From a virus (lineage: Duplodnaviria > Caudoviricetes): 64,000 bases of DNA. Under the pieces are notes generated by a model, which ran no database searches, was not told where the DNA came from, and was given only the letters and a program-made list of their open reading frames with translations. Shown one piece after another: positions 6,225 through 21,249 of the stretch (within the stretch, counting starts at the first letter, position 1; the number at the start of each line of letters is the position of its first letter). The position numbers and the translations under genes were made by a program. Location: the IMG/VR virus record IMGVR_UViG_3300046523_000171, positions 1,187 through 65,186 of that record. The stretch is one strand, 5' to 3'.

Positions 6225-8367
6225 CGTCGGCCTCATCATCCGGCAGCGCGCGCTCGTCCTGGCACTTCCGGCACACGCGCATGTCGTCCGGCACGAAGCG
6301 CATTTCTTCCCACGGCTCGCGCGCCTTCTTTTCCTCGCGCCCGCACAGCGATGTCATGGTTTGCAGGTCGATGATGTGCGCGGTTTTCTGCTTCGGCAGC
6401 GCCGCGATCCGGTAGCCCTGGCGTCCGGCCAGGCGAGGGTTCCGCACGTTCAGGCCGATGTCGTCCAGGCGCGCGTATGCCTCGCGCACGTACCAGGCGT
6501 AGTTGATGTCGTCGGGGAAGTCATCGGGCAGATCCATGCAGGGGAACGCGCCAGTCGTACCGGCCACGCGCGAGCCATCCTTCTTCTTGATGTAGCCCGT
6601 CTCGCCATCGGCGTAGTACCAGCGCACCATCTTGCCCAGGTAGTTGCCGTGCATGTCGTAGCCGCCGTTGGCGACCTGCTTGACGCCCACGAACTGCGTG
6701 ATGTCGTCGCACTTCATGATGGTGTCCTCGATGTCCGCGCCGGTCGTCAGGTAGTCCACCACGGCGGTCGAGCAAATGTCGAACGTCGGGTCGTGCTTCG
6801 CTTGCAGGCCCGCTTTTGCGAACAGACCCTTGCGCTTCACTTCCGCGATCTTTCCTGGTGCTTTAGCGTCCTCGACGAGTGCCATGTACGAGTTCACATC
6901 GCGCGAGAACACGCCCAGGTAGCGCACGGCTTCGGTCTGGAACGAGGTGGCGCATTCCCAATCGAACACGATGGCGTTGAACAGCCAGTAGCGGTCCTTC
7001 GGGATCAGCGTCACGATGCCGTCCGTGTTTGCCGAGATCACGCTGAACTTCTGGCGCTCCAATTCCTCGATCAGCATCAGCAGCGAAAGCTGTCCGGTGA
7101 TGGTGGTGGAGATCAGCAGCTTCGGCGCGTACACGACGGCGAACGGCGATCCGGTCTTGCCGAACGTGCCGTTATTAACGATCTTGAAGGAGTCGGATCG
7201 CTTCTTGTACTTCATCGACTGGCCCATGTCGCCAGCCTTCTTCAGCGCCGCCGCTTTCTCCTTGTAGCTGTCGCGCAGGTTCACGAATTTGCTGAACACG
7301 CCGAGGAAGTTCTTGCCCAGGGCTTCCGGCACGTAGCCGCACGCGATCATGAGGCGCGGGTAGTAGGCGCGAACGTCGCGGTCCTCGATCAGCGTGTCCT
7401 CGTCGGCGCGGAACGAGCGGCGCTTCTCTTTCGAGTGCAGGCCGCCGATGCCCATCTTGTAGTCGGTGAAGCCGATGCGGATCTTCAGTTCTCCGATCTC
7501 TTTCGGCAGGCGCACGACGCCGTAGTTCTTCTTTTTCGCGCCTGGCGGGTCCGGCTCGCCGCTGACGTAGAAGCGCGTCGAGGTGATGACCTTCAGCACG
7601 TCCTGCAACAGTGGCGAGGTGAAGCGGATGAACTTCGGCGGCTCGTACTTGAACGAGAAGGTCTTGACCTCGGGGCGCGGCGCGTCCTTGCCGGTGATCT
7701 TCTTCACCTCGGCGGCGATCAGCGTTTCCGCGATCTGCGCGTCCGACTTCGAGCGCACGTCGATGTCATATTCCAGGCTGATCTCGTTGCGGATCTCGAC
7801 CTCTTCACGCAGGTTGAGCACGAGTTCGCGCGTGGTCGCCAGGTCGTTGCTCAGATAGCGGCGCATGAGCGGGCGACGCTTCACGCCGACCGGCTCGCTC
7901 GGGTCGATGGGGAGTTCTTGCAGGCGCTTCATGTTCATGCGCGCGCCGTACTTCTTCAGGGACAGCTTGACGCCTGGTGCCACGTCGATCAGGTCGATGT
8001 GGTCGATCCAGTCCGGCCAGGTGACGTTGTACTTCGACCAGAAGTTGACCTTCGCCAGCGGATGCACCGAGATCCGGTTCACGATCAGGTCGTCGCTCGC
8101 GCGCTTCAGCATTTCGTTGCTAGCACCGGCCACGGCCAGGGCGATCATCGGCGCGTCGTACTTCAGACCGTTGAACGTGTAGATGCGGAACTTGCGCAGG
8201 ATCTTCTTGATCTTCACTGCGTCCAGATCGAGGCCCGCGTACTTCTCGATGATGACTTCTTTGCCCGTATCGACGTTCATGAAGCCGATGCTCCAATAGT
8301 CGATGTAGCACTCGGTATCGGTTGCGGCTTCGGGCCGCTTTTCAAGGAATAATTTTGGAATGCCCAT
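6214..8367 (-). CDS. DNA polymerase family B with 3'-5' exonuclease and C-terminal Zn module
   Basis: Exo motifs DTE, FNGLKYD and YLSND; polymerase motifs DVRAYYP, KIVNNGTFGK and NTDG. Confidence 0.9.
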   Translation of the reverse strand: MGIPKLFLEKRPEAATDTECYIDYWSIGFMNVDTGKEVIIEKYAGLDLDAVKIKKILRKFRIYTFNGLKYDAPMIALAVAGASNEMLKRASDDLIVNRISVHPLAKVNFWSKYNVTWPDWIDHIDLIDVAPGVKLSLKKYGARMNMKRLQELPIDPSEPVGVKRRPLMRRYLSNDLATTRELVLNLREEVEIRNEISLEYDIDVRSKSDAQIAETLIAAEVKKITGKDAPRPEVKTFSFKYEPPKFIRFTSPLLQDVLKVITSTRFYVSGEPDPPGAKKKNYGVVRLPKEIGELKIRIGFTDYKMGIGGLHSKEKRRSFRADEDTLIEDRDVRAYYPRLMIACGYVPEALGKNFLGVFSKFVNLRDSYKEKAAALKKAGDMGQSMKYKKRSDSFKIVNNGTFGKTGSPFAVVYAPKLLISTTITGQLSLLMLIEELERQKFSVISANTDGIVTLIPKDRYWLFNAIVFDWECATSFQTEAVRYLGVFSRDVNSYMALVEDAKAPGKIAEVKRKGLFAKAGLQAKHDPTFDICSTAVVDYLTTGADIEDTIMKCDDITQFVGVKQVANGGYDMHGNYLGKMVRWYYADGETGYIKKKDGSRVAGTTGAFPCMDLPDDFPDDINYAWYVREAYARLDDIGLNVRNPRLAGRQGYRIAALPKQKTAHIIDLQTMTSLCGREEKKAREPWEEMRFVPDDMRVCRKCQDERALPDDEADDEE

Positions 8368-8436
8368 GTGCTCTTTCAGAACGAAGAAACGCCGCAGGTT
8401 TTGAGGCTGCGGCGCTTCAGGTGCTACATGTTGGTG

Positions 8437-9078
8437 TTACAGGTCGTCGTCATCGTCGCCGTCGTCCGAGCCGCCGCCAGCAGTGGCAACGTCATCCCAG
8501 GCGTCAGCGTCATCGACGCGGCCTTGACCGAACGCGGTGTCCTCCTTGGAGAACATCACAGCGACCAGGCCAGCGTTCAGGCGCTTGCCGAACTTGTTGT
8601 TCTGGACCCACGGACGCAGCAGGATATGGCCCCATGCGCCGCCGAAGAACAGTTCCTTGATGGTGTCCAGATCTTCCACCGGGTCCAGCTTCTTGCCCGC
8701 TTTATCGCGCAGCGACGGACGGTTCGATTCGCGGGCGTTGACGAACCAGTGACCGGCATAGCCGTTCTCCACGTTCTCGTCGTCGTCATCGCTCGCGTTG
8801 GCATCGCCGTCGCGCAGGAACTTCTTGTCGGCCGGGACGCTGATTTTGGCTTCGGCCAGGACTGCCTTCATCACGGCGGCAATCGCGGTCTTGGCTTCTT
8901 CGTGCGTACCCTTCGGCATCATGCCAGTGATGCTGTACTTGGCCTCGCCCTGATCGCCTTCCTTCTTCCACGGCTTATCGACGTGGGGATAGGAGAAGCG
9001 CACGTTATCGACACGGATCATGCCGTTCTCGTACAGGACGAAGTTCTTGCCACGTTTTTTAACTACCAATGCGGTCAT
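8437..9078 (-). CDS. ssDNA-binding protein (DUF2815, T7 gp2.5-like)
   Basis: VRFSYPHVDKP, YSITGMMPK, NNKFGKRLNAGL; acidic tail DDGDDDDDL. Confidence 0.85.
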   Translation of the reverse strand: MTALVVKKRGKNFVLYENGMIRVDNVRFSYPHVDKPWKKEGDQGEAKYSITGMMPKGTHEEAKTAIAAVMKAVLAEAKISVPADKKFLRDGDANASDDDDENVENGYAGHWFVNARESNRPSLRDKAGKKLDPVEDLDTIKELFFGGAWGHILLRPWVQNNKFGKRLNAGLVAVMFSKEDTAFGQGRVDDADAWDDVATAGGGSDDGDDDDDL

Positions 9079-9133
9079 TTCAGGTTCCTCAAATTTCAGA
9101 CTTCACGAATTAAACGGTTTCACGATTTCTCGA

Positions 9134-10426
9134 TCAAACGTCGCTAAAAGCGTCATCGTATTGGTCGGCCAGTGCTGGCCTGCCGTCACGAATCGACGCC
9201 AAAGTTGCTTTGCCGGGCGGCCTGAACACCAGATCCTTCAGCAGATCGGGAACGTCCTTGCGCTTGTGCCCTGCGGCGATCAGCAACCTCTCTACCTCGG
9301 CCGGGGATGCGATCTCTTCCTTGACCAGATCATCCCTGTCGAGGCCAAGACCGACGAGCACTTCGACGGCCTTATCCTTGCTCTTGAAAACCCTGAACGA
9401 GCGGCCTTCTACCAGCTTTTGCAGCTTCAGCTTTTCACCCAGCTTCGCGCGGCGTTCGAGTTCTTCGCATACACCCTTGAAGAACTTCTCGACCGTACTT
9501 CGCCAGTCGTACAGCTTTTCCAACTCACTTGTCGTCAGCGTCGCCGCTTCCAACACGTTCGGCGCGTCGGTGTCACGCAGCACCTCTTTGAAGTACAGCA
9601 TTTCCGACTCGGTGACGGGCTTGCCCAGGTCGTCGAAAGCACCTTCGGCCAGGTCGATCACCACTTTCGCCTTCGCGGCACACGTCCGCTGGACGCGACA
9701 CCACTGGCACGATTCCGCGCTAGGCGTTCTCGGCGCGTTCTCCACCCACGCCGCCGCTGCACGTTCACGCACGTACTCTGCAAAGTTCAGCAGGTACTCT
9801 CTGTCCACCGTCCATTCCTCGAACACGTCGAGGCGCGGTTGCGCGATGCGAATCACGATCTCGCGGAAGTCATACAGCCAGTCCCAGGCGAAGAAGAACC
9901 CGAGTGCGTATATGAGCAACTGCGGATTGTCCTTCGCGTAGACTCGGACACCCTTGCCCATCTTCAGGTCGGTGATGACCATGCGCTGATACGTGCATGC
10001 GCTATGGTCGGCCGTTCCGCCCTGGTTCGGGATCGGGGTAAGCTGCGAAAAATCCACTCGCGTCTCGACGAAGTGATCGCCAGGCAGGTTTTTGCACCAG
10101 TCCACGTATCGCTTCACGTAGTCCATCATCACCTCATCCACGGTGATGAAGAACCCGAAGCCCTCGCCGTCAACCCAAAACGTTTTGCCGAGTAAGTGCT
10201 TCGGACGCTTCCCTTCTTTCAGCCAGGTTTCACCGACCATGTGGCCGACTGTCCCATAAGCTGCGTCCTCGCCGGATTCATCTGGCGCGAACAGGTTTGG
10301 AATCAGAGATCCCGCGCAACCGAGCCACATCTTCGAGCCGGATGGGGAGAAAACGGAGTGACCGCCCTCTTCCACCAACCGGATCGCTTCGCGCATCTGC
10401 GAAGCGGTGAAGTGTTGCTCGGTCAT
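9134..10426 (-). CDS. DUF2800 Cas4-like PD-(D/E)XK exonuclease
   Basis: HSVFSPSGSKMWLGC, GTADH...DLKMG, NPQLLIYALG, IAQPR and CQWC motifs. Confidence 0.88.
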   Translation of the reverse strand: MTEQHFTASQMREAIRLVEEGGHSVFSPSGSKMWLGCAGSLIPNLFAPDESGEDAAYGTVGHMVGETWLKEGKRPKHLLGKTFWVDGEGFGFFITVDEVMMDYVKRYVDWCKNLPGDHFVETRVDFSQLTPIPNQGGTADHSACTYQRMVITDLKMGKGVRVYAKDNPQLLIYALGFFFAWDWLYDFREIVIRIAQPRLDVFEEWTVDREYLLNFAEYVRERAAAAWVENAPRTPSAESCQWCRVQRTCAAKAKVVIDLAEGAFDDLGKPVTESEMLYFKEVLRDTDAPNVLEAATLTTSELEKLYDWRSTVEKFFKGVCEELERRAKLGEKLKLQKLVEGRSFRVFKSKDKAVEVLVGLGLDRDDLVKEEIASPAEVERLLIAAGHKRKDVPDLLKDLVFRPPGKATLASIRDGRPALADQYDDAFSDV

Positions 10427-10432
10427 TGACGA

Positions 10433-10846
10433 TTAGATGTCGTCGTCGTCGGTGCCGGTTTCGTCGTCGCCAGCCAGGGCTTTCGTCGCGGCCTCGAACA
10501 CGGCCTTCACCTTGTCGGCGGGGATCTCGGCCATCTTGGCGACGCCAGCGACATCGGAAATGATGGCCTTGGCGGCGGCAGCGCCTTGTTCTTCCTTGAC
10601 TTTGCCCAGCGCGGCTTGCATTTCTTCGACGGTCGGGCCTTTCGGTGCGTCGTCCTTCTTCGCGGCGGCGGCCTTGCCACCCTTGCCAGCGGCGGCCGGC
10701 TTGCTTTCGGTCTTGGCGGCCGAGGTGTCAGCAGCAGCAGCGGCGGTGCCAGTCGATGCGGTCGAAACGGTGCCAGCGGCGGCCAGGGCAGCGATCAGTG
10801 CTTTGATGTTGGTGTTCAGTTCTGCGATGTTTTGTTCCAGGGACAT
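10433..10846 (-). CDS. Ala-rich replication-module protein (N-terminal coiled coil, acidic tail)
   Basis: 137 aa, phage-like codon use, upstream of DUF2800. Confidence 0.7.
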   Translation of the reverse strand: MSLEQNIAELNTNIKALIAALAAAGTVSTASTGTAAAAADTSAAKTESKPAAAGKGGKAAAAKKDDAPKGPTVEEMQAALGKVKEEQGAAAAKAIISDVAGVAKMAEIPADKVKAVFEAATKALAGDDETGTDDDDI

Positions 10847-10927
10847 GCTATTACTCCGTTAAGTAAGGTTGGCGGAAAATTGTGCGTCGGCTTACCGCCG
10901 ATTCGGCCGACGCGATCTACAAAAAAA

Positions 10928-11317
10928 CTACTCTTTCAGGACACTCGACAGGTCGATGTTCTCACCGCCTTCACCGAACAGCGCGAACGCTGCGTTGGCG
11001 TCGGTGGATTGAGCGACTACAAGACCGACGCTGTAGCGTGCTAACTCCACATCTGCAACGAGAAGCGTATGTCGATCCGCGTCGCTGATTGCCTGGTGCT
11101 GATCGCCGCACTGTAAAGTGAGGATCGCACCCTGCATTGCATCGCACGCATCGAGCAACGATTCGCGCTGCCGGGCACCGTGTAACGCATACCGCAGCAT
11201 GTGCAGTTTCGTCATCAACAGGTGCATCTGCTTGACCGTCAGATCCGCTACCGCACCGGCATCGAATTCCAACGATTCCGGCACATGCGTCACTGCGATC
11301 AGGTCGTAGTTCTTCAT
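10928..11317 (-). CDS. Hypothetical protein
   Basis: 129 aa ORF, first gene of the leftward replication operon. Confidence 0.55.
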   Translation of the reverse strand: MKNYDLIAVTHVPESLEFDAGAVADLTVKQMHLLMTKLHMLRYALHGARQRESLLDACDAMQGAILTLQCGDQHQAISDADRHTLLVADVELARYSVGLVVAQSTDANAAFALFGEGGENIDLSSVLKE

Positions 11318-11357
11318 TCGTATCGCCCTGTCGTTCGTTCGTCACTGCATGAACAGA

Positions 11358-11402
11358 ATCTTCTCATGCAGCTTGATTGGCGTCAAGTGCCTGTGGGATA
11401 AT
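11358..11402. promoter_or_regulatory. Divergent promoter pair between replication operons
   Basis: Plus-strand TTGATT-N18-GATAAT and minus-strand TTGACG-N17-GAAGAT. Their -35 boxes form the inverted repeat CTTGA-N6-TCAAG. Confidence 0.45.
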
Positions 11403-11438
11403 TCTCACATGTTTTTGAGAAATTATAAGGGGGTGCAA

Positions 11439-11741
11439 ATGGACGTGAAATTTCCGCCGTGGGTCGAGGGACCGAGGGCGTGTATTAGTGAAGGATCGTT
11501 GGAGTCTCGGCGCTTGCGATACCTTGTAATGATGGCCGCGATTAACAGCACTCCAAGCGGGAGCATCGCGGCACTAGCCGATACTTGCGGCATCGACCGG
11601 CCGCAGGTTCATGCATCAATCAGGGAAGGTCGCTGTTCGCAGAAGATGGCGTTGAAGATCGAGAAGGCGTGCGGTCGAAGCGTTGTACGACGCGAGTGGT
11701 TGATGTTCCCACTTGAGATCGAAGAATTGACGACGCAATGA
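11439..11741 (+). CDS. Cro-like HTH regulator
   Basis: SIAALADTCGIDRPQVHASIREG...ALKIEKA; located just before the primase; SD AAGGGGG. Confidence 0.65.
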   Translation: MDVKFPPWVEGPRACISEGSLESRRLRYLVMMAAINSTPSGSIAALADTCGIDRPQVHASIREGRCSQKMALKIEKACGRSVVRREWLMFPLEIEELTTQ

Positions 11742-14302
11742 AGAACGAAGAATACACGTCCAAAAATAGTGGCCCACTGGCGTACTTGGGGTCACGACTA
11801 ATCGACAAAGCCTACGACATCGTACCAATCGCTGTCGGCAAAAAAGCACCGGGATTCGACAATTGGAGCAAGGCCCGTTCGACCAAGCCGCAACTCACGG
11901 AATGGATCGAGTCGGGCCATCGCCATTCCGGTGTCGGCATCCTCACGAAAAGAACGCCAGCGGTTGATCTCGACATTCGTGACGAAGCCATCGCCCTCGA
12001 AGCTGAAGAGAAGGCGCGCGAGATTTTCGGTGACGCACCGCTGCGCATCGGCATGCCGCCGAAGCGTTTGCTCGTCTACCGCACCGAGACGCCTTTCCGC
12101 AAGATGCGCTCGAACCGCTATCAGGACGAATGGGGCGAACTGCACCAGATCGAGATCCTGTGCGACGGCCAGCAGTTCGTCGCGTACCACATTCACCCTG
12201 ACACCGGCCGTCCGTACTACTGGCCGAACGAGAAGATCGACGACGAGGGCACCGTGATCGAGGCCGGTGGTCCGCTGTCCATCGCATCGAACGAACTCAC
12301 CGAGATCACGCCGGACCAGTGCCAGGAATTGATCGACTGGTTCCACGAACGCGCGAAGAAGGAAACCGACTGGAAGCTGGTGAAGAAGCAGCGCGACGGC
12401 CAGCTTGCGAACATCGACATGGACGATCCGTTCCTCGAAGATACGCAGGCCGTGGACATCAGCGAGACGGAATTGCGCTCGCGTCTCATGATGGTGCCGA
12501 ACCCTGACGACTACGACACATGGGTTCAGGTCGGCATGGCCCTGTATCACCAGTTCGACGGCGATGAAGTCGGCATGGAACTGTGGAACGAGTGGTCCGA
12601 GACGGCCGACAACTACGACCGCGATGCGCTCGAACGTCGCTGGGATGACTTCGGCATCGACGGCAAGAAGCGTGCGCCGATCACCGCGCGTTTCATCCTG
12701 AAGCTGTCCAAGGAAGCGGCGGCAGAAGGTGCTGCGGCGCTGGCGGTGAAGCTGCGCGACATGTTCAACGAGGCGAAAGACCTGGCCGCCTGGACGAAAG
12801 CCCGCGATGCTGCACGCGAAGCCGAGATCGACGGTCTGACCCGCGCCGCGCTGGCCGGTTTGGCGAAGGATCGCCTCGACATCATCAACGGGACGAAAAC
12901 GCCGCTGGCCGAGGTTAAGAAAGCCATCGCCTACGCGCCGTCGAAGGGCGAGAAGCTGCCTGGTTGGTGCGAGGATTGGGTCTACGACACGAGCGACGAC
13001 CGTTTCTACAACACCGCGAAGGGGATCTCGACCACGAAGCAGGGTTTCGACGCGATGTTCGACCGCTACGCGATGACGAAGAAGGACATTTTGGACGGCA
13101 AGACCTCGCCATCGTCCTCGGCGTCGGCGCTCGCGCTGAACCTCTACAAAATCAAGACCGTACAGGGTCGCCGCTACGAGCCGGGCGCAGATCCGGTGTT
13201 CTATCGTCCTGACGGCGTGTTCGCCAACACGTATGCGGCGCACGAGATCCCCGAACTGCCGGAAAAACTGCTGCCGCGCGACAAAGCGGCCATCAAGCGC
13301 GTGAAGGAACACATTCGCCACCTGCTCGTGAAGCCGGAAGAACGTCGCATCCTGCTCGACTGGCTTTCGTGGATCGTGCAAAACCCTGGCAAGCATGTGA
13401 ACTGGTCGATCCTGCTGCAAGGCGTCGAGGGTGATGGCAAGTCGTTCTTCGCTTTCCTCATGCGCGCGGTCATGGGCGTGTCGAACGTGCAGATGCTCAA
13501 CGCCCACGTCCTCGAATCGTCGTTCACCGATTGGCTCGTCGGCCAGTGCCTCACCTGTATCGAGGAAGTCCGGCTCATCAATGCGCACAACAAGTACGAA
13601 GTGCTGAACAAGGTGAAGCCGAACATCACGAACCACATCATTGAGGTTCACCCGAAGGGCAAGGCACCGTACAACGCGGTGAACACCACGTCGTATCTGT
13701 TCTTCTCGAACTTCCGCGACGCGCTGCCGCTCGATGACGATGGCCGCCGCTACTGCATCCTGTTCAGCCAGTGGCAGCGCAAGGACAAACTCGATGCGTT
13801 CAAGCGCGAGAACCCCGACTACTACGAGGATCTGTACTCGACCATCGAGACTTCGGCACCGGCCCTGCGCAAGTGGCTGCTCGAATGGGAACAGGACGAG
13901 TCGTTCAAGCCGTACGGCGACGCACCGGCCACCGACGCGAAGCGGTACATGATCCGCCAGGCGCAGCCGCAGTTCATTCAGGATCTCTACGACCTGATCG
14001 CGGAAAAAGTGGACCCGCTGATCTCGTTCGAGCTTCTGGACGGGACGCGGATGACCGACACGCTCATGGAACGTGGCCTGGAAGTGCCGGGTAACAAGGC
14101 AGTCGGCTCGATGCTGTCCCGCCACCGCTTCGAGTCGCTTGGAAAAATCCGCGTCGGCGGCGAGGTTCGCACCTACTACACCCGCGATCTCGACCTGTTC
14201 CAGTCGGTTGACGCGGACGGTTGCGTGAACGTCGATAACTCGAAAGTGCGGAAATACGTCGAAGCGGCCAAGGCGTCGATTGAGGATGACGATGAACTCT
14301 GA
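11738..14302 (+). CDS. Primase-helicase (Prim-Pol + PriCT-2 + SF3/DUF5906 helicase)
   Basis: PAVDLD, GQQFVAYHIHP, YDTWVQVGMALY (PriCT-2), Walker A GVEGDGKS, Walker B CIEE. Confidence 0.92.
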   Translation: MKNEEYTSKNSGPLAYLGSRLIDKAYDIVPIAVGKKAPGFDNWSKARSTKPQLTEWIESGHRHSGVGILTKRTPAVDLDIRDEAIALEAEEKAREIFGDAPLRIGMPPKRLLVYRTETPFRKMRSNRYQDEWGELHQIEILCDGQQFVAYHIHPDTGRPYYWPNEKIDDEGTVIEAGGPLSIASNELTEITPDQCQELIDWFHERAKKETDWKLVKKQRDGQLANIDMDDPFLEDTQAVDISETELRSRLMMVPNPDDYDTWVQVGMALYHQFDGDEVGMELWNEWSETADNYDRDALERRWDDFGIDGKKRAPITARFILKLSKEAAAEGAAALAVKLRDMFNEAKDLAAWTKARDAAREAEIDGLTRAALAGLAKDRLDIINGTKTPLAEVKKAIAYAPSKGEKLPGWCEDWVYDTSDDRFYNTAKGISTTKQGFDAMFDRYAMTKKDILDGKTSPSSSASALALNLYKIKTVQGRRYEPGADPVFYRPDGVFANTYAAHEIPELPEKLLPRDKAAIKRVKEHIRHLLVKPEERRILLDWLSWIVQNPGKHVNWSILLQGVEGDGKSFFAFLMRAVMGVSNVQMLNAHVLESSFTDWLVGQCLTCIEEVRLINAHNKYEVLNKVKPNITNHIIEVHPKGKAPYNAVNTTSYLFFSNFRDALPLDDDGRRYCILFSQWQRKDKLDAFKRENPDYYEDLYSTIETSAPALRKWLLEWEQDESFKPYGDAPATDAKRYMIRQAQPQFIQDLYDLIAEKVDPLISFELLDGTRMTDTLMERGLEVPGNKAVGSMLSRHRFESLGKIRVGGEVRTYYTRDLDLFQSVDADGCVNVDNSKVRKYVEAAKASIEDDDEL

Positions 14303-14309
14303 GGGAAAC

Positions 14310-15101
14310 ATGGGTATTGAGAAGTCGCTGGAAGATCTCAGCGCGAACGTGAAGGCGCTCACCGTCCAGTTGCGAGCGTCCTTCAGCTATCGGGAGCCGA
14401 AGCATGTCATCGGCATTTCCGGCGGCAAGGACAGTACGGCGATGGCGATGCGCTTGATGGAAACCGAGCCGCGCGACTACGAATTCATCTGCAACGCGAC
14501 CGGAAACGAACTGCCGGAACTGTTCACGCACCTGGCGAAGTTGGAAAAGATGTTCGGCAAGGAGTTCAAGCGCGTCACCTATCACACCGATCTGATCGGG
14601 ATGATCGAGGAAATTGGCATGCTGCCGAACTTTCGCGCGCGCTTCTGCACTCGCATGTTGAAGATCGAGCCGACCATCGAATACTTCGAGAGTCTGCCGC
14701 CCGGCAGCACGTTGTACGTCGGATTGCGCGCCGACGAGGAAGAACGCAAGGGTCTGTACGGCGAGGACATCAACATTCGCTTCCCGATGCGTGAATGGGG
14801 ATGGGGGATCGACGATGTGTGGAAGTACCTCGACGAAAACGGCATCGTCATCCCGAAGCGCACGGACTGCGCGCTTTGCTACGGCCAGCGGATCGACGAG
14901 TGGTTTTCGCTTTGGCGTGACAACCGGCCGATGTTCGACGAAGGGATCAGGATCGAGCAAAAACACGGCCATACCTTCCGCTCGGATGGTCGGGATACCT
15001 GGCCCGCCGCGCTTATCGACCTGGGAAAAGAGTTCGAGAGCGGTCGCCCGCTGCGAAAACGGAAGGCTCGCGCCGAGACATGCCGCGTGTGCTCCATTTG
15101 A
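14310..15101 (+). CDS. PAPS-reductase-family (PP-loop) protein
   Basis: ISGGKDSTAM PP-loop, RFCTRMLKIEP, GLRADE, PMREWG, RTDCALC; SD GAGGG before ATG 14310. Confidence 0.85.
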   Translation: MGIEKSLEDLSANVKALTVQLRASFSYREPKHVIGISGGKDSTAMAMRLMETEPRDYEFICNATGNELPELFTHLAKLEKMFGKEFKRVTYHTDLIGMIEEIGMLPNFRARFCTRMLKIEPTIEYFESLPPGSTLYVGLRADEEERKGLYGEDINIRFPMREWGWGIDDVWKYLDENGIVIPKRTDCALCYGQRIDEWFSLWRDNRPMFDEGIRIEQKHGHTFRSDGRDTWPAALIDLGKEFESGRPLRKRKARAETCRVCSI

Positions 15102-15188
15102 TTTTCCGCACGGCCGGGTTCGCCTGATCGTGCGATTCTGATCTCGCCGGACAGCTTCGCGGCTGATTCGGCTCCATTTTCCAACATT

Positions 15189-15230
15189 TGACCCGCCTCG
15201 GCTTAGGACACCGAATCGCGGGTCATTTTT
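15189..15230 (+). terminator. Intrinsic terminator after primase operon
   Basis: TGACCCGC...GCGGGTCA 8-bp stem followed by TTTTT. Confidence 0.6.
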
Positions 15231-15323
15231 CATTCTGGTTCCCGTTTTCGCGGGAATCACGACCACTTCGGCCACGGCTCGGCGTCGGCTAAGAAAAAAT
15301 CCTGTGCGCCAGCGACATGCGAA

Positions 15324-15501
15324 CCCCCGCTTTTAGGGAACATAGGGTGACATTTTTATATCGAATACCCTCTTTTCTTCCATTCTGTATCTCTATGTTC
15401 TCTATTTCCCTTAGTTTGACTACGTGTAGCGAGAAAAAAATAAAAAAAAGCCAGTAGGTAGAGAATAGCGATCCCCCACTTTTCGGGAACATAGGGTGAC
15501 A
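15324..15501 (+). repeat. Two 29-bp direct repeats CCCCC(G/A)CTTTT(A/C)GGGAACATAGGGTGACA
   Basis: Copies at 15324-15352 and 15473-15501, 27/29 identical, in an AT-rich non-coding stretch. Confidence 0.9.
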
Positions 15502-15589
15502 AGCCTCGTGTACGTGGACGGGATGGCATGGTCAAACCCTGTCAACGACTTGGTGCTATAGCGATTTCGATAAATTTGCGGGACACGCG

Positions 15590-15601
15590 GCTCTACGGAC
15601 C
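15590..15601 (-). other. Candidate cos site (5'-GGTCCGTAGAGC on minus strand)
   Basis: 10/12 match to the phage Chi cohesive end GGTGCGCAGAGC (recalled, not looked up). Lies in the only large intergenic gap, with Chi-like orientation relative to the primase. Confidence 0.6.
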
Positions 15602-15659
15602 CCCGGCTCGCCATCAGGCAGGGGAGGGACCCATTGACCCATAGGCCCGCTGGCGCGAT

Positions 15660-16070
15660 TTTCCGCCAGCGCGGCTACCACGCCACCAACCGCCCATAGA
15701 TCGCGCCTTGTATGCCTGTTCTCGTGCGTCCCAGGGCCACCCACGCCACACGGCCACCCCCACAGCAGGCCATGCCCGCAGGAAATGACCCACAGGACAC
15801 CCCGCCACACGGCCACCCGGCCACGATCCAGGCCCGCCACGCCACGACCCCGCCCGCCCAGGCATGCGGACACCCGGCCACCCCGCCCGGCCCGCTGTAG
15901 GGCTTCTATCCGGCTCGGCGTCCAGGCGGCTACACCGACACCCGGCCACGCATGCAAGCGCACCCACGCACGCCTGGACGCACCCGCGCACGAGGGCAAG
16001 CGCACCCGCGTACACGTACACGCGCATACACGAGGGCGGGCGCACATGCAAGCGCACATGCACGAGAGGC
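15660..16070 (+). repeat. C/A-skewed low-complexity tract with GGCCAC and GCAAGCGCAC repeats
   Basis: GCAAGCGCAC at 15954, 15996 and 16048; many CCAC/GGCCAC units; overlapping ORFs look spurious. Confidence 0.7.
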
Positions 16071-16100
16071 GGGAATCAGGGAATGCGGGCCGAGCGGCCC

Positions 16101-16127
16101 AAAAGAAAAACCCGCCTTGCGGCGGGT
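16101..16127 (-). terminator. Intrinsic terminator of leftward early operon
   Basis: CCCGCC-TTGC-GGCGGG stem with a 10-nt A-rich run on plus (U tract on minus). Confidence 0.8.
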
Positions 16128-16153
16128 CGGGTCATGCGGGGTAGGGTGAGGGC

Positions 16154-16651
16154 TTAGGCGTCGCGGCAGAACTCGCGGGACATGCGCACCATGTCGGCGG
16201 CGTTCAGGCTTGCATCTGCGGCGAAGCGTTGCAGCAGTTCGAGCGCGGCGGCTTCGCGGTTGAACGGGTCCAGCTTGTCTACCACTGCGCCATAACCGGC
16301 AGCGATGCGGGCGGCCTCTTGCTCGGGATCTTGGCCGGGATGAATCGTGATGATCTCCGATTCGGTGCGGTGCGTGGTGTTGCTGCGCATGGTCAGCGCG
16401 TAGCGGGTTGGTTCCGTGGTCGGGCGGCCACCGGGGCGGGCCAGCTTCGCCGCAAGTTCGATGTTCCGCGACTCGGGCAGCATGTAGCGCAGCGGCGCAA
16501 CAACCCACGTTTCAAGGTACAGGCGCGCCGGGCCGCGCAGGGCGTCGCGCACGGTGTCGGCTTCGCGCTCGCCACCATCGGCGCGGGGTGCGCATTCCAG
16601 GCGGGCGACGGCTTCGCGGATAATGCTTGCTTCGGTGTTGGTCATGGTCAT
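16154..16651 (-). CDS. Hypothetical early protein
   Basis: 165 aa ORF, SD AGGAG, ends just before the terminator. Confidence 0.7.
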   Translation of the reverse strand: MTMTNTEASIIREAVARLECAPRADGGEREADTVRDALRGPARLYLETWVVAPLRYMLPESRNIELAAKLARPGGRPTTEPTRYALTMRSNTTHRTESEIITIHPGQDPEQEAARIAAGYGAVVDKLDPFNREAAALELLQRFAADASLNAADMVRMSREFCRDA

Positions 16652-16686
16652 GGCGTGGTGCTCCTATCGTTGGTGAGTGGGTCGGG

Positions 16687-17328
16687 TCAGTCGGGGCCGT
16701 TGTTGTCCAGCATACCAGCGCAGGCCAGCGCATGAAACACGCCTTGCCCGAACGCGGCGCACGCCTTGCCATAGCCCAGGCCATCGGCGGCGGTCTTGCC
16801 TTTCACGTCCAGGCCATACGACACGCGGAACCGCTTGTTTGCGAACTGTTCGACCTTGACCGGGTATTCATTGGATACGGTAACTTCGATGCAAACATGC
16901 GTGCGGGCCGTGCCGCTGTCCGTGTTCACCTGGACCGAGTGAGCGTCGGCAAGGCGCGACAGTTCGCGGGCGCGGTCGTACATCTTGCCCGCGTCGCTCG
17001 GCGGCCTGCAAGTGTGATCCAGCAGCACGCGCAGCACGTCGCGCAGTTCGTCATACGTTGGCGCGGGCTTCGTGGTATCGACGACCGGCGCAGCAGGTGC
17101 GGCGGGTTTGACTTCGAGCGGCGGAAGGTAGGACGCGCGAACGGCTTTCAATTCCTTGCCATCCTTGATGATCTCCACATCTGCGGCCTGTGCTGCAAGG
17201 CGCATGTTTTCCAGGCTCGGGCCGGTCGTTTTGGCGCGCTGGCGAAGTTTTGGAATCTCGGAAATGCGGCCCGAGTGGACCGCGTGACATTCTTGTAAAA
17301 ACTGATCCAGGGGCGAGAGGGTAGACAT
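16687..17328 (-). CDS. Hypothetical early protein
   Basis: 213 aa ORF downstream of promoter P1. Confidence 0.7.
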   Translation of the reverse strand: MSTLSPLDQFLQECHAVHSGRISEIPKLRQRAKTTGPSLENMRLAAQAADVEIIKDGKELKAVRASYLPPLEVKPAAPAAPVVDTTKPAPTYDELRDVLRVLLDHTCRPPSDAGKMYDRARELSRLADAHSVQVNTDSGTARTHVCIEVTVSNEYPVKVEQFANKRFRVSYGLDVKGKTAADGLGYGKACAAFGQGVFHALACAGMLDNNGPD

Positions 17329-17380
17329 TGGGACGGCCTTTCATGTTTGAACGGTGCGCGGAATTGCGCGACGTGTTGAG

Positions 17381-17410
17381 ATTCTAAATGACAAGGGAAA
17401 ACCCTGTCAA
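17381..17410 (-). promoter_or_regulatory. sigma70 promoter P1 with embedded palindrome
   Basis: TTGACA-gggttttcccttgtcatt-TAGAAT. Confidence 0.85.
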
Positions 17411-17474
17411 CAGCTTTTCAACAACAAACACGAACACCCGCCACGCGGGCGGGTTCGGTCAGCAGAACGCCGGG

Positions 17475-17702
17475 TTAGATCTCGATGCCGTACTTTTCGA
17501 GTCGCTGTTTTTGGAAGGCGTCAAAGGCGGCCATTTCTTCGGCGTCGGGGTGCGCCATCCAGGCAATAAGGCCACACGTCGCCACGAGGCCGAGCGCCTG
17601 CGAGCCGTGACCAGTGCCGCACAGGATGAGGCCACCAACGAAGGCCACGAGCGCGGCCAGCAGGACCACGAGAACGCGCGCGAGTATCAAGGCCATAATC
17701 AT
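17475..17702 (-). CDS. Small two-TM membrane protein
   Basis: MIMALILARVLVVLLAALVAFVGGLILCG...LGLVATCGLIAWMA. Confidence 0.6.
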   Translation of the reverse strand: MIMALILARVLVVLLAALVAFVGGLILCGTGHGSQALGLVATCGLIAWMAHPDAEEMAAFDAFQKQRLEKYGIEI

Positions 17703-18025
17703 GCATGACCCCTTCCGAACACGAACGCCGGGCGATGCTGCGCGGGCTTGCCGGTGCGCGACGCTTCGATGCGTCCAGGCTTCGCCGCGTCGCGGGACAG
17801 GTACACGTAAAACGCAAGGCCGAGCGACAGCGGAGACGTTGAACTTTTTCGCCAGCCTACCGCCTTCGCCATGTCGGACAGGGCGCATTGTTGACTGATC
17901 CGCAGGCTATGCGGGTCGGCGGTAAAGTCGATGTCATCGGCGGCGCGCATGTGGGCGCGGATCGCTTCGCGGCGCTTCGAGCCTTCGAGGGTGCGGAAGC
18001 TGCGGAGTTGATTATTCTTGCACAT
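17699..18025 (-). CDS. Hypothetical early protein
   Basis: 108 aa from ATG 18025 with SD GAAGG; stop overlaps the next start. Confidence 0.6.
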   Translation of the reverse strand: MCKNNQLRSFRTLEGSKRREAIRAHMRAADDIDFTADPHSLRISQQCALSDMAKAVGWRKSSTSPLSLGLAFYVYLSRDAAKPGRIEASRTGKPAQHRPAFVFGRGHA

Positions 18026-18029
18026 GGGT

Positions 18030-18563
18030 TTAAGCCTTCCAGTTCTCAATTTCGGTTGCAAGGTCGCGCACGCGGTCGCGGTCGCCGTGGATCGGTGAAC
18101 CGTACATGATGCGCAAAAGTGCGTCGCGGTCGTTGCCGGTCGCGGCGGCATGGTCGCGGGCGTCGCTGTAGTCGTCGGCGCTGATCGTCTCGCCGTCAGC
18201 CATGCGGCGCACCGCTTCGCCCAGCTTCGACACGTAGCGCGAACCGTCCCAGGCTTCGAGCAATCCCAGGCGCGGCGGGCGGCCATCGTCCAGGCTGCGG
18301 CGGGCTTCGTTGAGTGCGTCGGCGTCGTCATGCGCGCCGATCATGATAAAGCCGTGGCGGCCCTTGTAGCGGTACGACTTGAGGCCATGCGCCGCAAGAG
18401 GTTTGTTCGCCGTGTCGGTCGAGAAGGCCAGCGCGCGGCGGCGTCCGTGCGGCTTGCCAAACAGGGCTTTCCCGCTGCTGGTCTTGCATACTTGGCCGTT
18501 CAGGCGTCCGCAGGTCGGGCAAGTCACGGACAGCGCGCCGCCGGTTTTCGTGGTGTCGGTCAT
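18030..18563 (-). CDS. Zinc-finger protein (CPTCG...C...H)
   Basis: VTCPTCGRLNGQVCKTSSGKALFGKPHGRR. Confidence 0.65.
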   Translation of the reverse strand: MTDTTKTGGALSVTCPTCGRLNGQVCKTSSGKALFGKPHGRRRALAFSTDTANKPLAAHGLKSYRYKGRHGFIMIGAHDDADALNEARRSLDDGRPPRLGLLEAWDGSRYVSKLGEAVRRMADGETISADDYSDARDHAAATGNDRDALLRIMYGSPIHGDRDRVRDLATEIENWKA

Positions 18564-18578
18564 GGTGTCGAATTCCTG

Positions 18579-18597
18579 TAAATCGTTTATACCGTTT
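18579..18597 (+). repeat. 19-bp motif TAAATCGTTTATACCGTTT, copy 1
   Basis: Exact copies at 19271 (inverted) and 46640. Confidence 0.9.
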
Positions 18598-19237
18598 CCA
18601 GCACGAGCGCGAAGCCGCGAGACGCGAAGTAAGGCAGCGCATCAAATGGCGTTGCGAAGTGGCGGCCCGCTGTCCCGTCAATGTAGCTTGCCCAGGGTTG
18701 CGAACGGTCCCATTCGGGATGGTAGGCAATGCGGGCGCGGCTGCATTTGCTGCGGAAGGTTTGCCCCGGCGCGTAATCCATCGTCAGGCCGCGCATGCGC
18801 AGCAGTTCGGACAGCAGGAAGTAACCGCCCGCGCCAACGCTCGGCGGCGTGTCAGGTGTCGCGGCGTCGCCAACTTGATACACGTAGCGGCGGCCGTCAT
18901 CGGCGGCCATGCGCCAAACCGGGCGCGAGATCTCGCCGCGCTGCGCCATGCCGCAGAACTCCCAGCGGCCCAGCTTCGACGCCTCGGCGGCGTCCAGTTC
19001 CGCGACGTGCGCCACGCGGTCAGCTTCGAGAAGGGTAGCGGCACTGGCGATATTTTCGGACGTGATGAGGGCCGAGCTATCCACCTCGGCGCGGTAGTCG
19101 CGCCATGCCTGATTGATGATCGCAGTAAAGCGGGCCTTGCGGTGTCCCACGTCGCGGGCGGCGTCAATGCAACGCTGATACAGGCGACCATCGGAAACGG
19201 CGGATAAATAAAGGTCGTCGGCGGTAATGTAAGGCAT
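18587..19237 (-). CDS. Hypothetical early protein
   Basis: 216 aa ORF, SD AAGGGG, flanked by inverted 19-mers. Confidence 0.7.
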   Translation of the reverse strand: MPYITADDLYLSAVSDGRLYQRCIDAARDVGHRKARFTAIINQAWRDYRAEVDSSALITSENIASAATLLEADRVAHVAELDAAEASKLGRWEFCGMAQRGEISRPVWRMAADDGRRYVYQVGDAATPDTPPSVGAGGYFLLSELLRMRGLTMDYAPGQTFRSKCSRARIAYHPEWDRSQPWASYIDGTAGRHFATPFDALPYFASRGFALVLETV

Positions 19238-19270
19238 GTCTAAATTCCCCTTGATGGTGGATTATTTGAT

Positions 19271-19289
19271 AAACGGTATAAACGATTTA
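19271..19289 (-). repeat. 19-bp motif copy 2 (inverted)
   Basis: AAACGGTATAAACGATTTA on plus strand, the reverse complement of copy 1. Confidence 0.9.
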
Positions 19290-19294
19290 GCGGC

Positions 19295-20239
19295 TTATTT
19301 CTTCGGCGGGTTCAGGTCGAAGGCGTACGGGAATTCCGACAGAATGCCGCGCAGGTGTTCGAGTTCTTCGCCCTCAACGTGATTATTCCAACCGAATGCA
19401 AAGCGGTCAGTGTGGCTGTAATAGATCACGTTCGACAGGTCAACGCCACGATCAAGCAACCATGTGTAAGCGTCGCGCTTGATGGTCGCAGTCTTGACGG
19501 TCTTTTCGTAGTCGGCGGCCACGTCGGCGCGCTGTTTGGCTCGGCGTTCTTGGCCGCGCTTCGTCAGTCCCTCAATGCGGGCTTTCTCGAACAGCGGCAA
19601 CACCTCGGCGCGTTCTTCAGGCGACAGCGGCGGGCGGCTCGCGGTGCTCTTGTCCGACACGCGGCGCAGGCGCAGCAAATGCAGGTCGTCGCGCTTCAGG
19701 TACGACGATTCCAGGCAAGCGCCGCAGAACTGGCCCGGCTCGGCGTGCTGGTACTGTGCGCCGCAGTAGCCGCATGCGCAAGTGTTGGCGCGGGCCTGTT
19801 GCAGTTCGTCCGACGTGACGTAATAGCCGTGTTTAATGCGCTTGTTCGTTACGATCGCTTCGGACCAGTCGAACAGGCGCGCGGACAGTGGCGCGGCGCT
19901 GTTCATTTGATTATCGAAGATGTTTGCGAGTTCGATAGATACCGGGGCGGACCACTCGCCGGACGGCGACACCAGCGGGCGGCGGCTCGCGTCCGGTTCG
20001 GGACGGCCTGCGGCCTTGTCGATCATCTTCCAGAACTCAAAAAAGCGGGTCTTTTCCGGGCTTGCGAATTCCGGCATATAGCTATTCCAGGGCGTCAAGC
20101 CTGCGGCCTTGAATTTCTCGACCAGCGCGGCATATTGGGCGGCCTGTTCGGGCTTGTCGATCTCGAAGAAATACGCGGTTAAAGTCGCGGCGGCGGTGTC
20201 TGCGCGCTTCGGTTCGACGGTTGCAAAAATCTGTTTCAT
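19295..20239 (-). CDS. Hypothetical protein with Cys cluster (CACGYCG...CGAC)
   Basis: 314 aa ORF, likely zinc-binding. Confidence 0.7.
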   Translation of the reverse strand: MKQIFATVEPKRADTAAATLTAYFFEIDKPEQAAQYAALVEKFKAAGLTPWNSYMPEFASPEKTRFFEFWKMIDKAAGRPEPDASRRPLVSPSGEWSAPVSIELANIFDNQMNSAAPLSARLFDWSEAIVTNKRIKHGYYVTSDELQQARANTCACGYCGAQYQHAEPGQFCGACLESSYLKRDDLHLLRLRRVSDKSTASRPPLSPEERAEVLPLFEKARIEGLTKRGQERRAKQRADVAADYEKTVKTATIKRDAYTWLLDRGVDLSNVIYYSHTDRFAFGWNNHVEGEELEHLRGILSEFPYAFDLNPPKK

Positions 20240-20249
20240 GATGTGACCC

Positions 20250-20366
20250 TTAGAAAGTTAAGACCAGTTGAGCGGCGGCGTACACGGCCACCAAAATTCC
20301 CGCCAGCGCCACGACCGGGGCGGCAATGTCTGCCGCTTTGAAATACCACTGATTGCAGGTTTCCAC
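20250..20366 (-). CDS. Putative 38-aa single-TM peptide
   Basis: GTG start after SD GAAGGGG; METCNQWYFKAADIAAPVVALAGILVAVYAAAQLVLTF; first ORF after P2. Confidence 0.4.
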   Translation of the reverse strand: METCNQWYFKAADIAAPVVALAGILVAVYAAAQLVLTF

Positions 20367-20400
20367 GTTCGCCCCTTCGGTGTCGTTGTCGAGTAAGTGC

Positions 20401-20430: not shown

Positions 20431-20440
20431 CAGCTTTTCA

Positions 20441-21207: not shown

Positions 21208-21249
21208 CAGCTTTAAGCACGAACGCAACACCGGGCAAAGCCGCGCCCC

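What the first reader, a model, noticed from the sequence alone, without database searches (positions are those of the whole stretch)
10433..15101. PAPS-reductase-like enzyme carries a leader resembling the N-terminus of a replication-module protein
Seen: ORF 14310 begins MGIEKSLEDLSANVKALTVQL before its ISGGKDS PP-loop. ORF 10846 begins MSLEQNIAELNTNIKALIAAL. The amphipathic pattern and N-x-KAL-x3-L match at protein level with little DNA identity. The gene is co-transcribed with the primase-helicase and lies next to the candidate genome end; no other sulfur-assimilation genes are present. Established: PP-loop/PAPS-reductase folds include DndC and SspD (DNA phosphorothioation) and tRNA thiolases. 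Inference: a coiled-coil tag recruits a nucleotide- or DNA-modifying enzyme to the replisome, i.e. a possible undescribed single-gene phage DNA modification or anti-restriction system.
Basis: partly seen in the sequence, partly recalled or inferred. Interest (0 to 1): 0.72.

Follow-up and report, generated by a model that had tools for sequence, protein, structure and literature searches.

The report
Orphan SspD-like enzyme with borrowed helix
A 65-kb phage has acquired a stand-alone relative of SspD, the sulfur-transfer enzyme of bacterial DNA phosphorothioation. The enzyme starts with a short helix copied from the front end of the phage's own small replication-module protein, probably a docking tag, but neither binding nor DNA modification has been shown.

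Summary
Residues 1-21 of the two proteins are reciprocal best matches in the whole genome (score 46, next best 20-29). One in 200,000 shuffles reaches that score.

The enzyme (14310-15101) is not CysH. It is a full-length homologue of true SspD: hhalign probability 100%, 33% identity, PP-loop and five cysteines conserved. The complete phage genome has no sspA, sspB or sspC.

The gene is an 800-bp cassette placed just after the primase stop codon. It is missing from all five complete relatives searched.

Leaderless homologues are common. They usually lie between the DNA polymerase and primase-helicase genes of about 37-kb phages.

The helical leader occurs only in this phage and in one sister cluster at 74% identity. 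That cluster's leader matches a different allelic type of the same helix.

The 137-aa protein belongs to a large phage-only family. It has an N-terminal helix, a disordered linker, a three-helix domain and an acidic tail.

A docking or co-assembly tag is the best reading, but it is inferred. The sister contig could not be fetched and no co-fold could be run. That it modifies DNA or counters host defence is inferred from homology and gene neighbourhood only. The "genome end" next to the gene is unverified. The scan had noted this enzyme family in replication operons of other phages.

The parts
14310..15101 (+). Orphan SspD-like PP-loop enzyme, 263 aa (P0001), stop codon included
   Evidence: Pfam PAPS_reduct 34.6 bits. 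PADLOC SspD model 134 bits, E 2e-39. hhalign against true SspD: probability 100%, E 7e-41. AF2 mean pLDDT 86.
14310..14387 (+). Leader, residues 1-26, predicted as a single helix; hydrophobic residues at 3, 7, 10, 14, 17 and 21
   Evidence: AF2 helix 2-26, pLDDT about 78. Missing from most of the 120 nearest homologues and from all 115 distinct homologues in fetched loci. Matches the 137-aa family's N-helix.
14388..15098 (+). Catalytic core: PP-loop SGGKDS at residues 37-42; cysteines 61, 113, 187, 190, 258, 261
   Evidence: Family alignment. Five of the six cysteines are invariant with true SspD. No ECGLH motif.
14303..15100 (+). Inserted cassette (ribosome-binding site plus ORF), missing from close relatives; boundaries approximate
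   Evidence: No blastn match in G001 or G002, which are about 80% identical on either side. The sequence after this gene's stop aligns with the sequence after the primase stop in G001.
14301..14306 (+). Shine-Dalgarno site GAGGGA, overlapping the primase stop codon
   Evidence: Read directly from the sequence.
15190..15230 (+). Terminator-like hairpin with a long loop and a T-run, at the position of G001's canonical post-primase terminator
   Evidence: Sequence and alignment to G001. The simple scan does not call it because the loop exceeds 8 nt.
11738..14302 (+). Primase-helicase (Prim-Pol, PriCT-2, DUF5906), the upstream gene of the same transcription unit
   Evidence: Pfam. 7-nt gap to the enzyme gene.
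10433..10846 (-). 137-aa replication-module protein (P0121), family phrog_7721
   Evidence: PHROG hit E 7e-17. 1,327 representative clusters. AH2 gp76 is a member.
10778..10846 (-). N-terminal helix of the 137-aa protein, residues 1-23; the model for the enzyme's leader
   Evidence: AF2 helix 3-23. It is the most conserved block of the family.
10475..10630 (-). Three-helix C-terminal domain of the 137-aa protein, residues 73-124
   Evidence: AF2 pLDDT 82-89. No significant fold match.
10436..10474 (-). Disordered acidic tail ending in a hydrophobic residue
   Evidence: 128 of 133 family representatives end in L, M or I.

Best explanation
**Shown**
- The gene at 14310-15101 encodes a stand-alone member of the SspD branch of PP-loop ATP pyrophosphatases. 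SspD is the sulfur-transfer enzyme of SspABCD DNA phosphorothioation.
- It entered this 65-kb phage lineage (related to Burkholderia phages AH2 and BcepNazgul) as an 800-bp cassette directly behind the primase-helicase gene.
- The sequence supports co-transcription with the primase, though this is not measured.
- Its first 26 residues form a predicted helix. At the protein level, but not the DNA level, this helix belongs to the N-terminal helix family of the phage's 137-aa replication-module protein.

**Inferred**
- In the 137-aa family the helix is an anchor. It carries a payload made of a linker, a small domain and an acidic tail.
- In the enzyme the same anchor carries a catalytic payload instead. 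The enzyme would then go where the 137-aa protein goes, either by co-assembling with it or by using the same docking site in the replication machinery.
- The enzyme most likely acts on replicating phage DNA, by phosphorothioation or a related thio-modification with sulfur from a host cysteine desulfurase. Alternatively it interferes with host defence that depends on phosphorothioation.

My confidence by layer: identity and origin about 0.9; a functional docking tag about 0.5; action on DNA or against defence about 0.4.
For: **Identity of the enzyme**
- PADLOC SspD model: E 2e-39, 134 bits, against DndC 23 and BrxP 20 bits.
- A true sspA-B-C-D plus sspFGH operon was verified in L218.
- The alignment with four true SspD proteins runs end to end at 33-35% identity. 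The PP-loop, the R-x-C-T-R block, the internal CxxC and the C-terminal CxxC are all invariant.
- hhalign: probability 100%, E 7e-41, 229 columns.

**Insertion**
- The gene is missing from two relatives that are about 80% identical on both sides.
- It is absent from 5 of 5 complete relatives and from all 18 fetched loci that carry the 137-aa family.

**Link to replication**
- Among 128 distinct loci with leaderless homologues, a family-A DNA polymerase neighbours the gene in 70.
- A DUF5906 primase-helicase neighbours it in 61, and a DUF2800 nuclease lies upstream in 40. Nearly all are on the same strand.

**Leader**
- The leader is present only here (cluster of 2) and in the P0002 cluster (6 members).
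- Type matching: this phage's leader scores 44-45 with type-1 helices and 30 with type-2. The P0002-cluster leaders score 37-43 with type-2 and 17-20 with type-1. This phage's own 137-aa protein is type 1.
- Identical residues are mostly encoded by different codons, so this is not a recent duplication.

**Modularity**
- Family members with two C-domains still have a single N-helix.
- Other homologues of the enzyme carry different N-terminal add-ons, such as a zinc ribbon.
- The 137-aa family is essentially absent near leaderless enzymes.
Against: - Nothing here tests binding or oligomeric state.
- The contig that carries P0002 could not be fetched. Whether its 137-aa protein is type 2 is unknown, so the type matching is indirect.
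- One locus (L166) has a distant member of the 137-aa family together with a leaderless enzyme.
- All five complete relatives do without the enzyme, so it is dispensable for replication.
- The phage enzyme scores 134 bits on the SspD model where a true SspD scores 300. It also lacks three short SspD segments, so its substrate may differ.
- SspD normally needs SspB and SspC, and the phage has neither.
- After the heptad pattern is accounted for, the residual similarity has p of about 0.004, not 5e-6.
Confidence: 0.45

Rival explanations
1. The leader is a fusion scar or a generic self-association helix. The gene once recombined into or next to a gene of the 137-aa family and kept its first codons. 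The helix now serves at most to make the enzyme a homo-oligomer or to stabilise it. It has no functional link to the 137-aa protein or the replisome.
For: - Cassette-like gene movement is evident.
- N-terminal add-ons in this enzyme family are variable and often absent.
- The enzyme works without any leader in most phages.
- One locus pairs a leaderless enzyme with a distant member of the 137-aa family.
- Much of the score comes from the heptad pattern: the mean of heptad-preserving shuffles is 24, against 46 observed.
Against: - The helix has stayed intact in two clades whose cores are 74-77% identical, while synonymous sites between the leader and the 137-aa helix are saturated.
- Each clade matches a different allelic type of the 137-aa helix. 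A single old scar drifting freely would not do that.
- The leader occurs only in the lineage that owns the 137-aa family.
Confidence: 0.3
2. The enzyme is an anti-defence protein that acts on the host rather than on phage DNA. It might hijack, titrate or poison host Ssp/Dnd sulfur relay or modification complexes, as the vibriophage insert that carries a PAPS-domain::Dam fusion defeats Dnd. On this view its place in the replication operon reflects only early timing.
For: - An insert of two phage-specific genes, one a PAPS-domain::Dam fusion, confers anti-Dnd activity (bioRxiv 10.1101/2021.05.05.442762).
- PAPS reductases occur in Aca-regulated anti-defence operons (PMC13551039).
- The gene is an accessory cassette, missing from close relatives.
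- It lacks three short SspD segments, which could change its partners.
Against: - All catalytic-type invariants are kept, which argues against a pure decoy.
- The synteny between polymerase and primase-helicase holds in 60-70 of 128 loci. That is tighter than simple early expression would require.
- A borrowed replication-protein helix points to a site of action inside the phage's own machinery.
Confidence: 0.2
3. The gene is an auxiliary metabolic gene: a CysH-type PAPS reductase that boosts host sulfate assimilation, as phage papers often annotate this family.
For: - The Pfam PAPS_reduct domain is above threshold (34.6 against 22.5 bits).
- The top Foldseek hits are CysH structures, at TM about 0.45.
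- The annotation is in routine use (PMC9144972).
Against: - The best family model by far is SspD (134 bits).
- There is no ECGLH catalytic motif; the protein ends in a CxxC like SspD.
- No other sulfur-assimilation gene is present.
- The family sits in replication modules.
Confidence: 0.03
4. The similarity of the two N-termini is a chance match between two amphipathic helices.
For: The stretch is short (21 residues, 8 identities) and both sequences are biased towards helix-forming residues.
Against: - They are reciprocal best hits in the genome by a wide margin.
- p is about 5e-6 by full shuffle and 0.004 by heptad-preserving shuffle.
- An independent family profile picks out exactly the leader-bearing enzymes, in register.
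- A second clade matches a second helix type.
Confidence: 0.02

Closest known systems
SspD of the SspABCD-SspE/SspFGH single-strand DNA phosphorothioation systems
   Same: Full-length homology: hhalign probability 100%, 33-35% identity. It shares the PP-loop, the R-x-C-T-R block, an internal CxxC and a C-terminal CxxC, and has a similar length.
   Different: It is an orphan, with no SspA, SspB or SspC in the complete phage genome. It lacks three short SspD segments and scores 134 bits where a true SspD scores 300. It carries an N-terminal helix and sits in a phage replication operon.
Vibriophage PAPS-domain::Dam fusion in an anti-Dnd insert (Piel et al., bioRxiv 10.1101/2021.05.05.442762; Nat Microbiol 2022)
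   Same: A phage-borne accessory protein with a PAPS-reductase-family domain, acquired as a module and fused to a second module.
   Different: There the partner module is a C-terminal methylase, and anti-Dnd activity was shown by phage engineering with a two-gene insert. Here the partner is a 26-residue N-terminal helix and no phenotype is known.
phrog_424, the phage 'PAPS reductase' family (e.g. Dunaliella viridis virus SI2 gene DVVG_00035)
   Same: Same protein family: phrog_424 E 4e-34, and 46% identity to the SI2 protein.
   Different: Members usually begin 7-10 residues before the PP-loop and have no helical leader. Their function has not been tested.
DndC (Dnd phosphorothioation) and BrxP (BREX type 4)
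   Same: Same PP-loop clan, with a role in DNA phosphorothioation (PMC12914056).
   Different: The matches are weak: TIGR03183 scores 18 bits against a cut-off of 290, PADLOC DndC 23 bits and BrxP 20 bits.
Acidic C-terminal tails of phage and bacterial SSBs (T7 gp2.5, E. coli SSB), used as docking tips; from my own knowledge
   Same: The 137-aa family ends in an acidic run closed by a hydrophobic residue. In this phage the SSB and the primase end the same way, and the polymerase ends in an acidic run.
   Different: No OB fold. The 137-aa protein is a helix, a linker and a three-helix domain of unknown function. The analogy is a lead only.

Membership tests
SspD (PT-system PP-loop sulfurtransferase) | PP-loop ATP-binding motif SGGxDS near the N-terminus of the core | tested here: met
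   SGGKDS at residues 37-42, invariant in 45 family members and in four true SspD proteins.
SspD (PT-system PP-loop sulfurtransferase) | Full-length sequence homology to SspD proteins encoded in verified sspABCD operons | tested here: met
   The operon was verified in L218. PADLOC SspD E 2e-39. hhalign probability 100%, E 7e-41, 229 columns.
SspD (PT-system PP-loop sulfurtransferase) | Conserved cysteines (R-x-C-T-R, internal CxxC, C-terminal CxxC) | tested here: met
   C113, C187, C190, C258 and C261 are invariant across the phage family and true SspD.
SspD (PT-system PP-loop sulfurtransferase) | Genomic linkage to sspA (or iscS), sspB and sspC | tested here: not met
   No SspA, SspB or SspC match in the 100%-complete phage genome. 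The SspB search also found nothing in the control genomes, so it is the weakest of the three.
SspD (PT-system PP-loop sulfurtransferase) | Score comparable with bona fide members on the family model | tested here: inconclusive
   134 bits, against 300 bits for the L218 SspD. Profile positions 204-277 are unmatched by HMMER, although hhalign aligns through to the end.
SspD (PT-system PP-loop sulfurtransferase) | ATP pyrophosphatase activity and sulfur transfer to DNA | not testable with these tools
   Needs biochemistry and LC-MS of DNA.
CysH (assimilatory PAPS reductase) | C-terminal catalytic ECGLH motif | tested here: not met
   No ECG[LI]H in the protein; it ends in a CxxC.
DndC | Score above the curated cut-off of TIGR03183 | tested here: not met
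   18 bits against a cut-off of 290.4.
phrog_7721 (137-aa replication-module protein family) | N-terminal helix, disordered linker, three-helix domain, acidic tail ending in a hydrophobic residue | tested here: met
   PHROG E 7e-17. AF2 architecture. Family-wide pattern.
phrog_7721 N-helix (as a module) in the enzyme's leader | Match to a profile of the family's N-helices, in register from residue 1 | tested here: met
   E 0.004 and 12.9 bits in an 809-sequence database, profile positions 1-19 on residues 1-19. Noise starts at E 6.7.

The most novel reading that the evidence does not exclude
Orphan SspD-like enzymes are regular parts of a widespread phage replication module (DUF2800 nuclease, Enc34-type SSB, family-A polymerase, DUF5906 primase-helicase). 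They would carry out replication-coupled thio-modification of phage DNA without SspB or SspC, with the replisome supplying access to DNA. In this lineage the enzyme would be plugged into the machinery through an anchor helix copied from a hub protein (the 137-aa family). That would make the anchor helix an exchangeable address label for replisome payloads.
Probability: 0.15. Interest if true: 0.85.

Novelty: new variant of a known kind. Interest (0 to 1): 0.55.

Why it matters
Phage 'PAPS reductase' genes are among the most often reported viral auxiliary metabolic genes and are usually read as sulfate assimilation. Here one large branch of them proves to be a full-length SspD homologue wired into phage replication modules. 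That shifts the likely role to DNA modification or counter-defence against phosphorothioation-based immunity.

The borrowed helix gives a concrete handle for experiments. If it is an address label, deleting or swapping it should unhook the enzyme from its site of action. The 137-aa family, with over a thousand clusters and no known function, would then gain a first functional clue as a replisome hub.

If the helix is only a fusion scar, the finding reduces to a tidy example of cassette insertion and module shuffling.

Tried and rejected
This blocked the direct co-variation test.

**Searches that found nothing useful**
- Scans of IMG/VR and the JGI metagenomes with P0002 returned only leaderless relatives.
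- A word search restricted to residues 1-40 found no further carrier of the leader.
- No second protein with the helix exists within 10 kb of the 137-aa gene in 18 related loci, nor anywhere in the whole genomes G001 and G002.
- Foldseek of the 137-aa model gave no significant match. The protein atlas gave only unnamed viral clusters.
- tblastn of the 137-aa protein against cultured phages found nothing, although AH2 gp76 is a member by direct reading. My guess is that the low-complexity filter hid it.
- A profile hit to PDB entry 21fy chain C, 'PptA' (E 1.5e-6), could not be interpreted. No paper on it was found.
- The zinc-ribbon leaders of some homologues have no second copy in their own loci. 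That add-on therefore does not mimic a neighbouring protein in the same way.

**Readings rejected:** CysH-type AMG, DndC membership, recent intragenomic duplication (DNA about 52% identical) and chance similarity.

Full report
**Setting.** The window is 64,000 of the 65,186 bases of a single viral contig. CheckV rates the contig 100% complete. It closes on an exact 127-bp terminal overlap, which is an assembler k-mer and not evidence of physical ends.

The region holds a divergent replication module. On the minus strand lie:
- a DNA polymerase (6214-8367);
- an Enc34-type SSB (8437-9078);
- a DUF2800 PD-(D/E)XK nuclease (9134-10426);
- the 137-aa protein (10433-10846);
- a 129-aa protein (10928-11317).

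On the plus strand lie a YdaS/HTH-like protein (11349-11741), a Prim-Pol/PriCT-2/DUF5906 primase-helicase (11738-14302) and the PAPS_reduct protein (14310-15101). Gene order matches Burkholderia phage AH2, family Casjensviridae. In AH2 the record ends about 530 bp after the primase gene and there is no such enzyme.

**The observation.**
- Over 21 residues the ungapped BLOSUM62 score is 46, with 8 identities.
- The pair is the reciprocal best match among 89,354 six-frame 21-mers of the genome; the next best scores are 29 and 25.
- It is also the reciprocal best among 2,763 possible N-termini, where the next best are 20 and 25.
- One of 200,000 full shuffles reaches 46. With the six heptad-core positions held hydrophobic, 840 of 200,000 do.

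So part of the score is the shared 3-4 hydrophobic spacing at positions 3, 7, 10, 14, 17 and 21, and part is not.

I then built a profile from 31 distinct N-helices of the 137-aa family, leaving out this phage's own copy. I searched it against all stop-to-stop ORFs of the genome plus 126 homologues of the enzyme.
- The phage's own 137-aa protein came first (E 1e-10).
- Next came only the leader-bearing enzymes, aligned from their first residue (E 0.004 to 0.7).
- Noise began at E 6.7.

By my hand count on the sequences, the two leaders are about 52% identical in DNA. Six of the seven identical non-Met residues use different codons. This is not a recent duplication or gene conversion.

**What the enzyme is.**
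- Pfam gives only a modest PAPS_reduct hit (34.6 bits). NCBIfam's DndC model is far below its cut-off (18 against 290 bits).
- PADLOC's SspD model matches at E 2e-39 and 134 bits.
- To check against real SspD, I scanned bacterial genomes with the family alignment.
- Several hits at 30-35% identity lie in operons of about 400, 300, 1,070 and 270 aa, followed by three large genes.
- For L218 these score as SspA, SspB, SspC, SspD, SspF and SspG.
- The phage protein aligns with four such SspD proteins from its core's first strand to the last residue.
- The PP-loop, the R-x-C-T-R block, an internal CxxC and the C-terminal CxxC are all invariant. The phage form lacks three short SspD segments.
- hhalign gives probability 100%, E 7e-41 and 33% identity over 229 columns.
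- The AF2 model (pLDDT 86) has the PP-loop fold. CysH, NcsA, APS reductase and LarE are the nearest solved structures, at TM about 0.45.
- There is no ECGLH motif.
- The phage genome has no SspA, SspB or SspC match.

I file it as an orphan member of the SspD branch, not as a proven SspD.

**How it got there.** Two complete relatives, G001 and G002, are about 80% identical to this phage over most of its length. Both lack 14303-15259. The primase's last codons are conserved. The sequence that follows the enzyme's stop codon aligns with the sequence that follows the primase stop in G001, including a hairpin and T-run at the place of G001's terminator.

The insert is therefore essentially a ribosome-binding site plus the ORF. 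Its GC and GC3 match those of its neighbours. None of five complete relatives, and none of 18 loci carrying the 137-aa family, has the gene. With a 7-nt gap, a Shine-Dalgarno site over the primase stop and no terminator between the genes, co-transcription is the natural reading.

**The wider family of the enzyme.** There are 3,643 homologues at E 0.001 or better, and the top 120 are all at least 57% identical. Most have 7-17 residues before the PP-loop. Seventeen have 24 or more, and six of those carry a zinc ribbon.

Among 128 distinct fetched loci the gene sits in a conserved same-strand block:
- a DUF2800 nuclease (40 loci);
- a 210-aa protein (43 loci);
- a family-A polymerase (70 loci, mostly the immediate neighbour);
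- the enzyme;
- a DUF5906 primase-helicase (61 loci).

This is the same kind of replication module as in the present phage. Earlier notes of this scan had flagged the same family inside replication operons of other phages. My neighbour count is an independent check of that pattern.

**The leader's distribution.**
- No helical leader of this kind is seen in 115 distinct homologues from IMG/VR, JGI and GTDB loci.
- None turned up in a word search restricted to residues 1-40.
- The only other carriers are the six members of the P0002 cluster, 74-77% identical in the core. Their leaders have the same length but a different sequence.

The 137-aa family's N-helix comes in allelic types. Proteins whose C-terminal halves are 90-100% identical to this phage's copy can carry a different helix type.
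- This phage's enzyme leader scores 44-45 with type-1 helices and 30 with type-2.
- The P0002-cluster leaders score 37-43 with type-2 and 17-20 with type-1.
- This phage's own 137-aa protein is type 1.

Whether the P0002 phages carry type 2 could not be checked.

**The 137-aa protein.** It belongs to phrog_7721, of unknown function. A profile search of 1.84 billion representatives finds 1,327 clusters, nearly all 105-140 aa and aligned from residue 1. AF2 predicts helix 3-23, disorder 24-72, a three-helix domain 73-124 and a disordered acidic tail. No fold match is significant.
- The N-helix is the best conserved block of the family.
- The tail ends in L, M or I in 128 of 133 representatives.
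- A few members carry two C-domains behind one N-helix.
- AH2 gp76 is a member.
- In this phage the SSB and the primase also end in an acidic run closed by a hydrophobic residue, and the polymerase ends in an acidic run. From my own knowledge this recalls the docking tails of T7 gp2.5 and bacterial SSB; that is a lead, not a test.
- The family is essentially absent from the flanks of leaderless enzymes. The one exception is a distant member in L166, next to a leaderless enzyme.

**Reading.**

Shown:
- an orphan SspD-branch enzyme;
- insertion as a cassette behind the primase;
- a leader that is a protein-level member of the 137-aa family's N-helix;
- a leader restricted to the lineage that owns that family, with type-specific resemblance in two clades.

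Inferred:
- The helix is an anchor that puts the enzyme where the 137-aa protein sits. It does so by co-assembly or by sharing a docking site; I cannot tell which.
- The enzyme thio-modifies replicating DNA or counters defence that depends on phosphorothioation.

The main rival is a fusion scar or a plain self-association helix.

**Comparison with the literature.**
- Phage PAPS-reductase-family genes are widely annotated, often as sulfate-assimilation genes (PMC9144972).
- Reviews and surveys note their kinship to DndC and SspD and their place in anti-defence regions (PMC11437467; PMC13551039).
- A vibriophage insert of two genes, one a PAPS-domain::Dam fusion, was shown to overcome Dnd.
- Orphan 'SspD' hits in prophages have been listed without follow-up (PMC12429752).

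In the papers searched I found no description of three things: the end-to-end SspD homology of this large branch, its fixed place between polymerase and primase-helicase, and the borrowed helix.

**Verdict.** This is a new variant of a known kind, of moderate interest, and the decisive test (reading the sister contigs) is a simple look-up that I could not run here.

Noticed in passing
window 15100-16150: A 1-kb non-coding stretch lies after the enzyme gene. It has two 34-nt direct repeats (15319-15352 and 15468-15501, 91% identical) flanking an AT-rich core, then CA-rich iterons (15735-16060). In relative G001 the contig breaks inside this stretch with a 12-bp overlap, and AH2 has iterons at the same position after its primase. 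It is a candidate origin or packaging site.
   Followed up: partly
window 6214-14302 (C-termini of the polymerase, SSB, 137-aa protein and primase): The SSB, the 137-aa protein and the primase each end in an acidic run closed by a hydrophobic residue. The DNA polymerase ends in an acidic run without one. This may be a shared docking-tail system like T7 gp2.5 and gp4.
   Followed up: no
window 10433-10846 and homologues P0122-P0125: The N-helix of the 137-aa protein is swapped between allelic types among phages whose C-terminal halves are 90-100% identical. That implies recombination inside this small gene.
   Followed up: partly
homologues P0007, P0013, P0019, P0047, P0096, P0112; loci L060 and L164: Some homologues of the enzyme carry an N-terminal four-cysteine zinc ribbon instead of a helix. 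The N-terminus thus seems to be a general site for add-on modules. No second copy of the ribbon exists in their own loci.
   Followed up: partly
window 11373-11449: Divergent sigma-70-like promoters lie back to back between the 129-aa gene (minus strand) and the HTH gene (plus strand). This is probably the control region of the replication module.
   Followed up: no
PDB entry 21fy chain C ('PptA'): The family profile hits a solved 270-aa protein named PptA (E 1.5e-6) that lacks the canonical PP-loop serine-glycine motif. I found no paper describing it.
   Followed up: partly
window 16000-28000: Most of the sequence that differs from relatives G001 and G002 lies here, in a region of small early genes. 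It looks like an accessory-gene hotspot.
   Followed up: no
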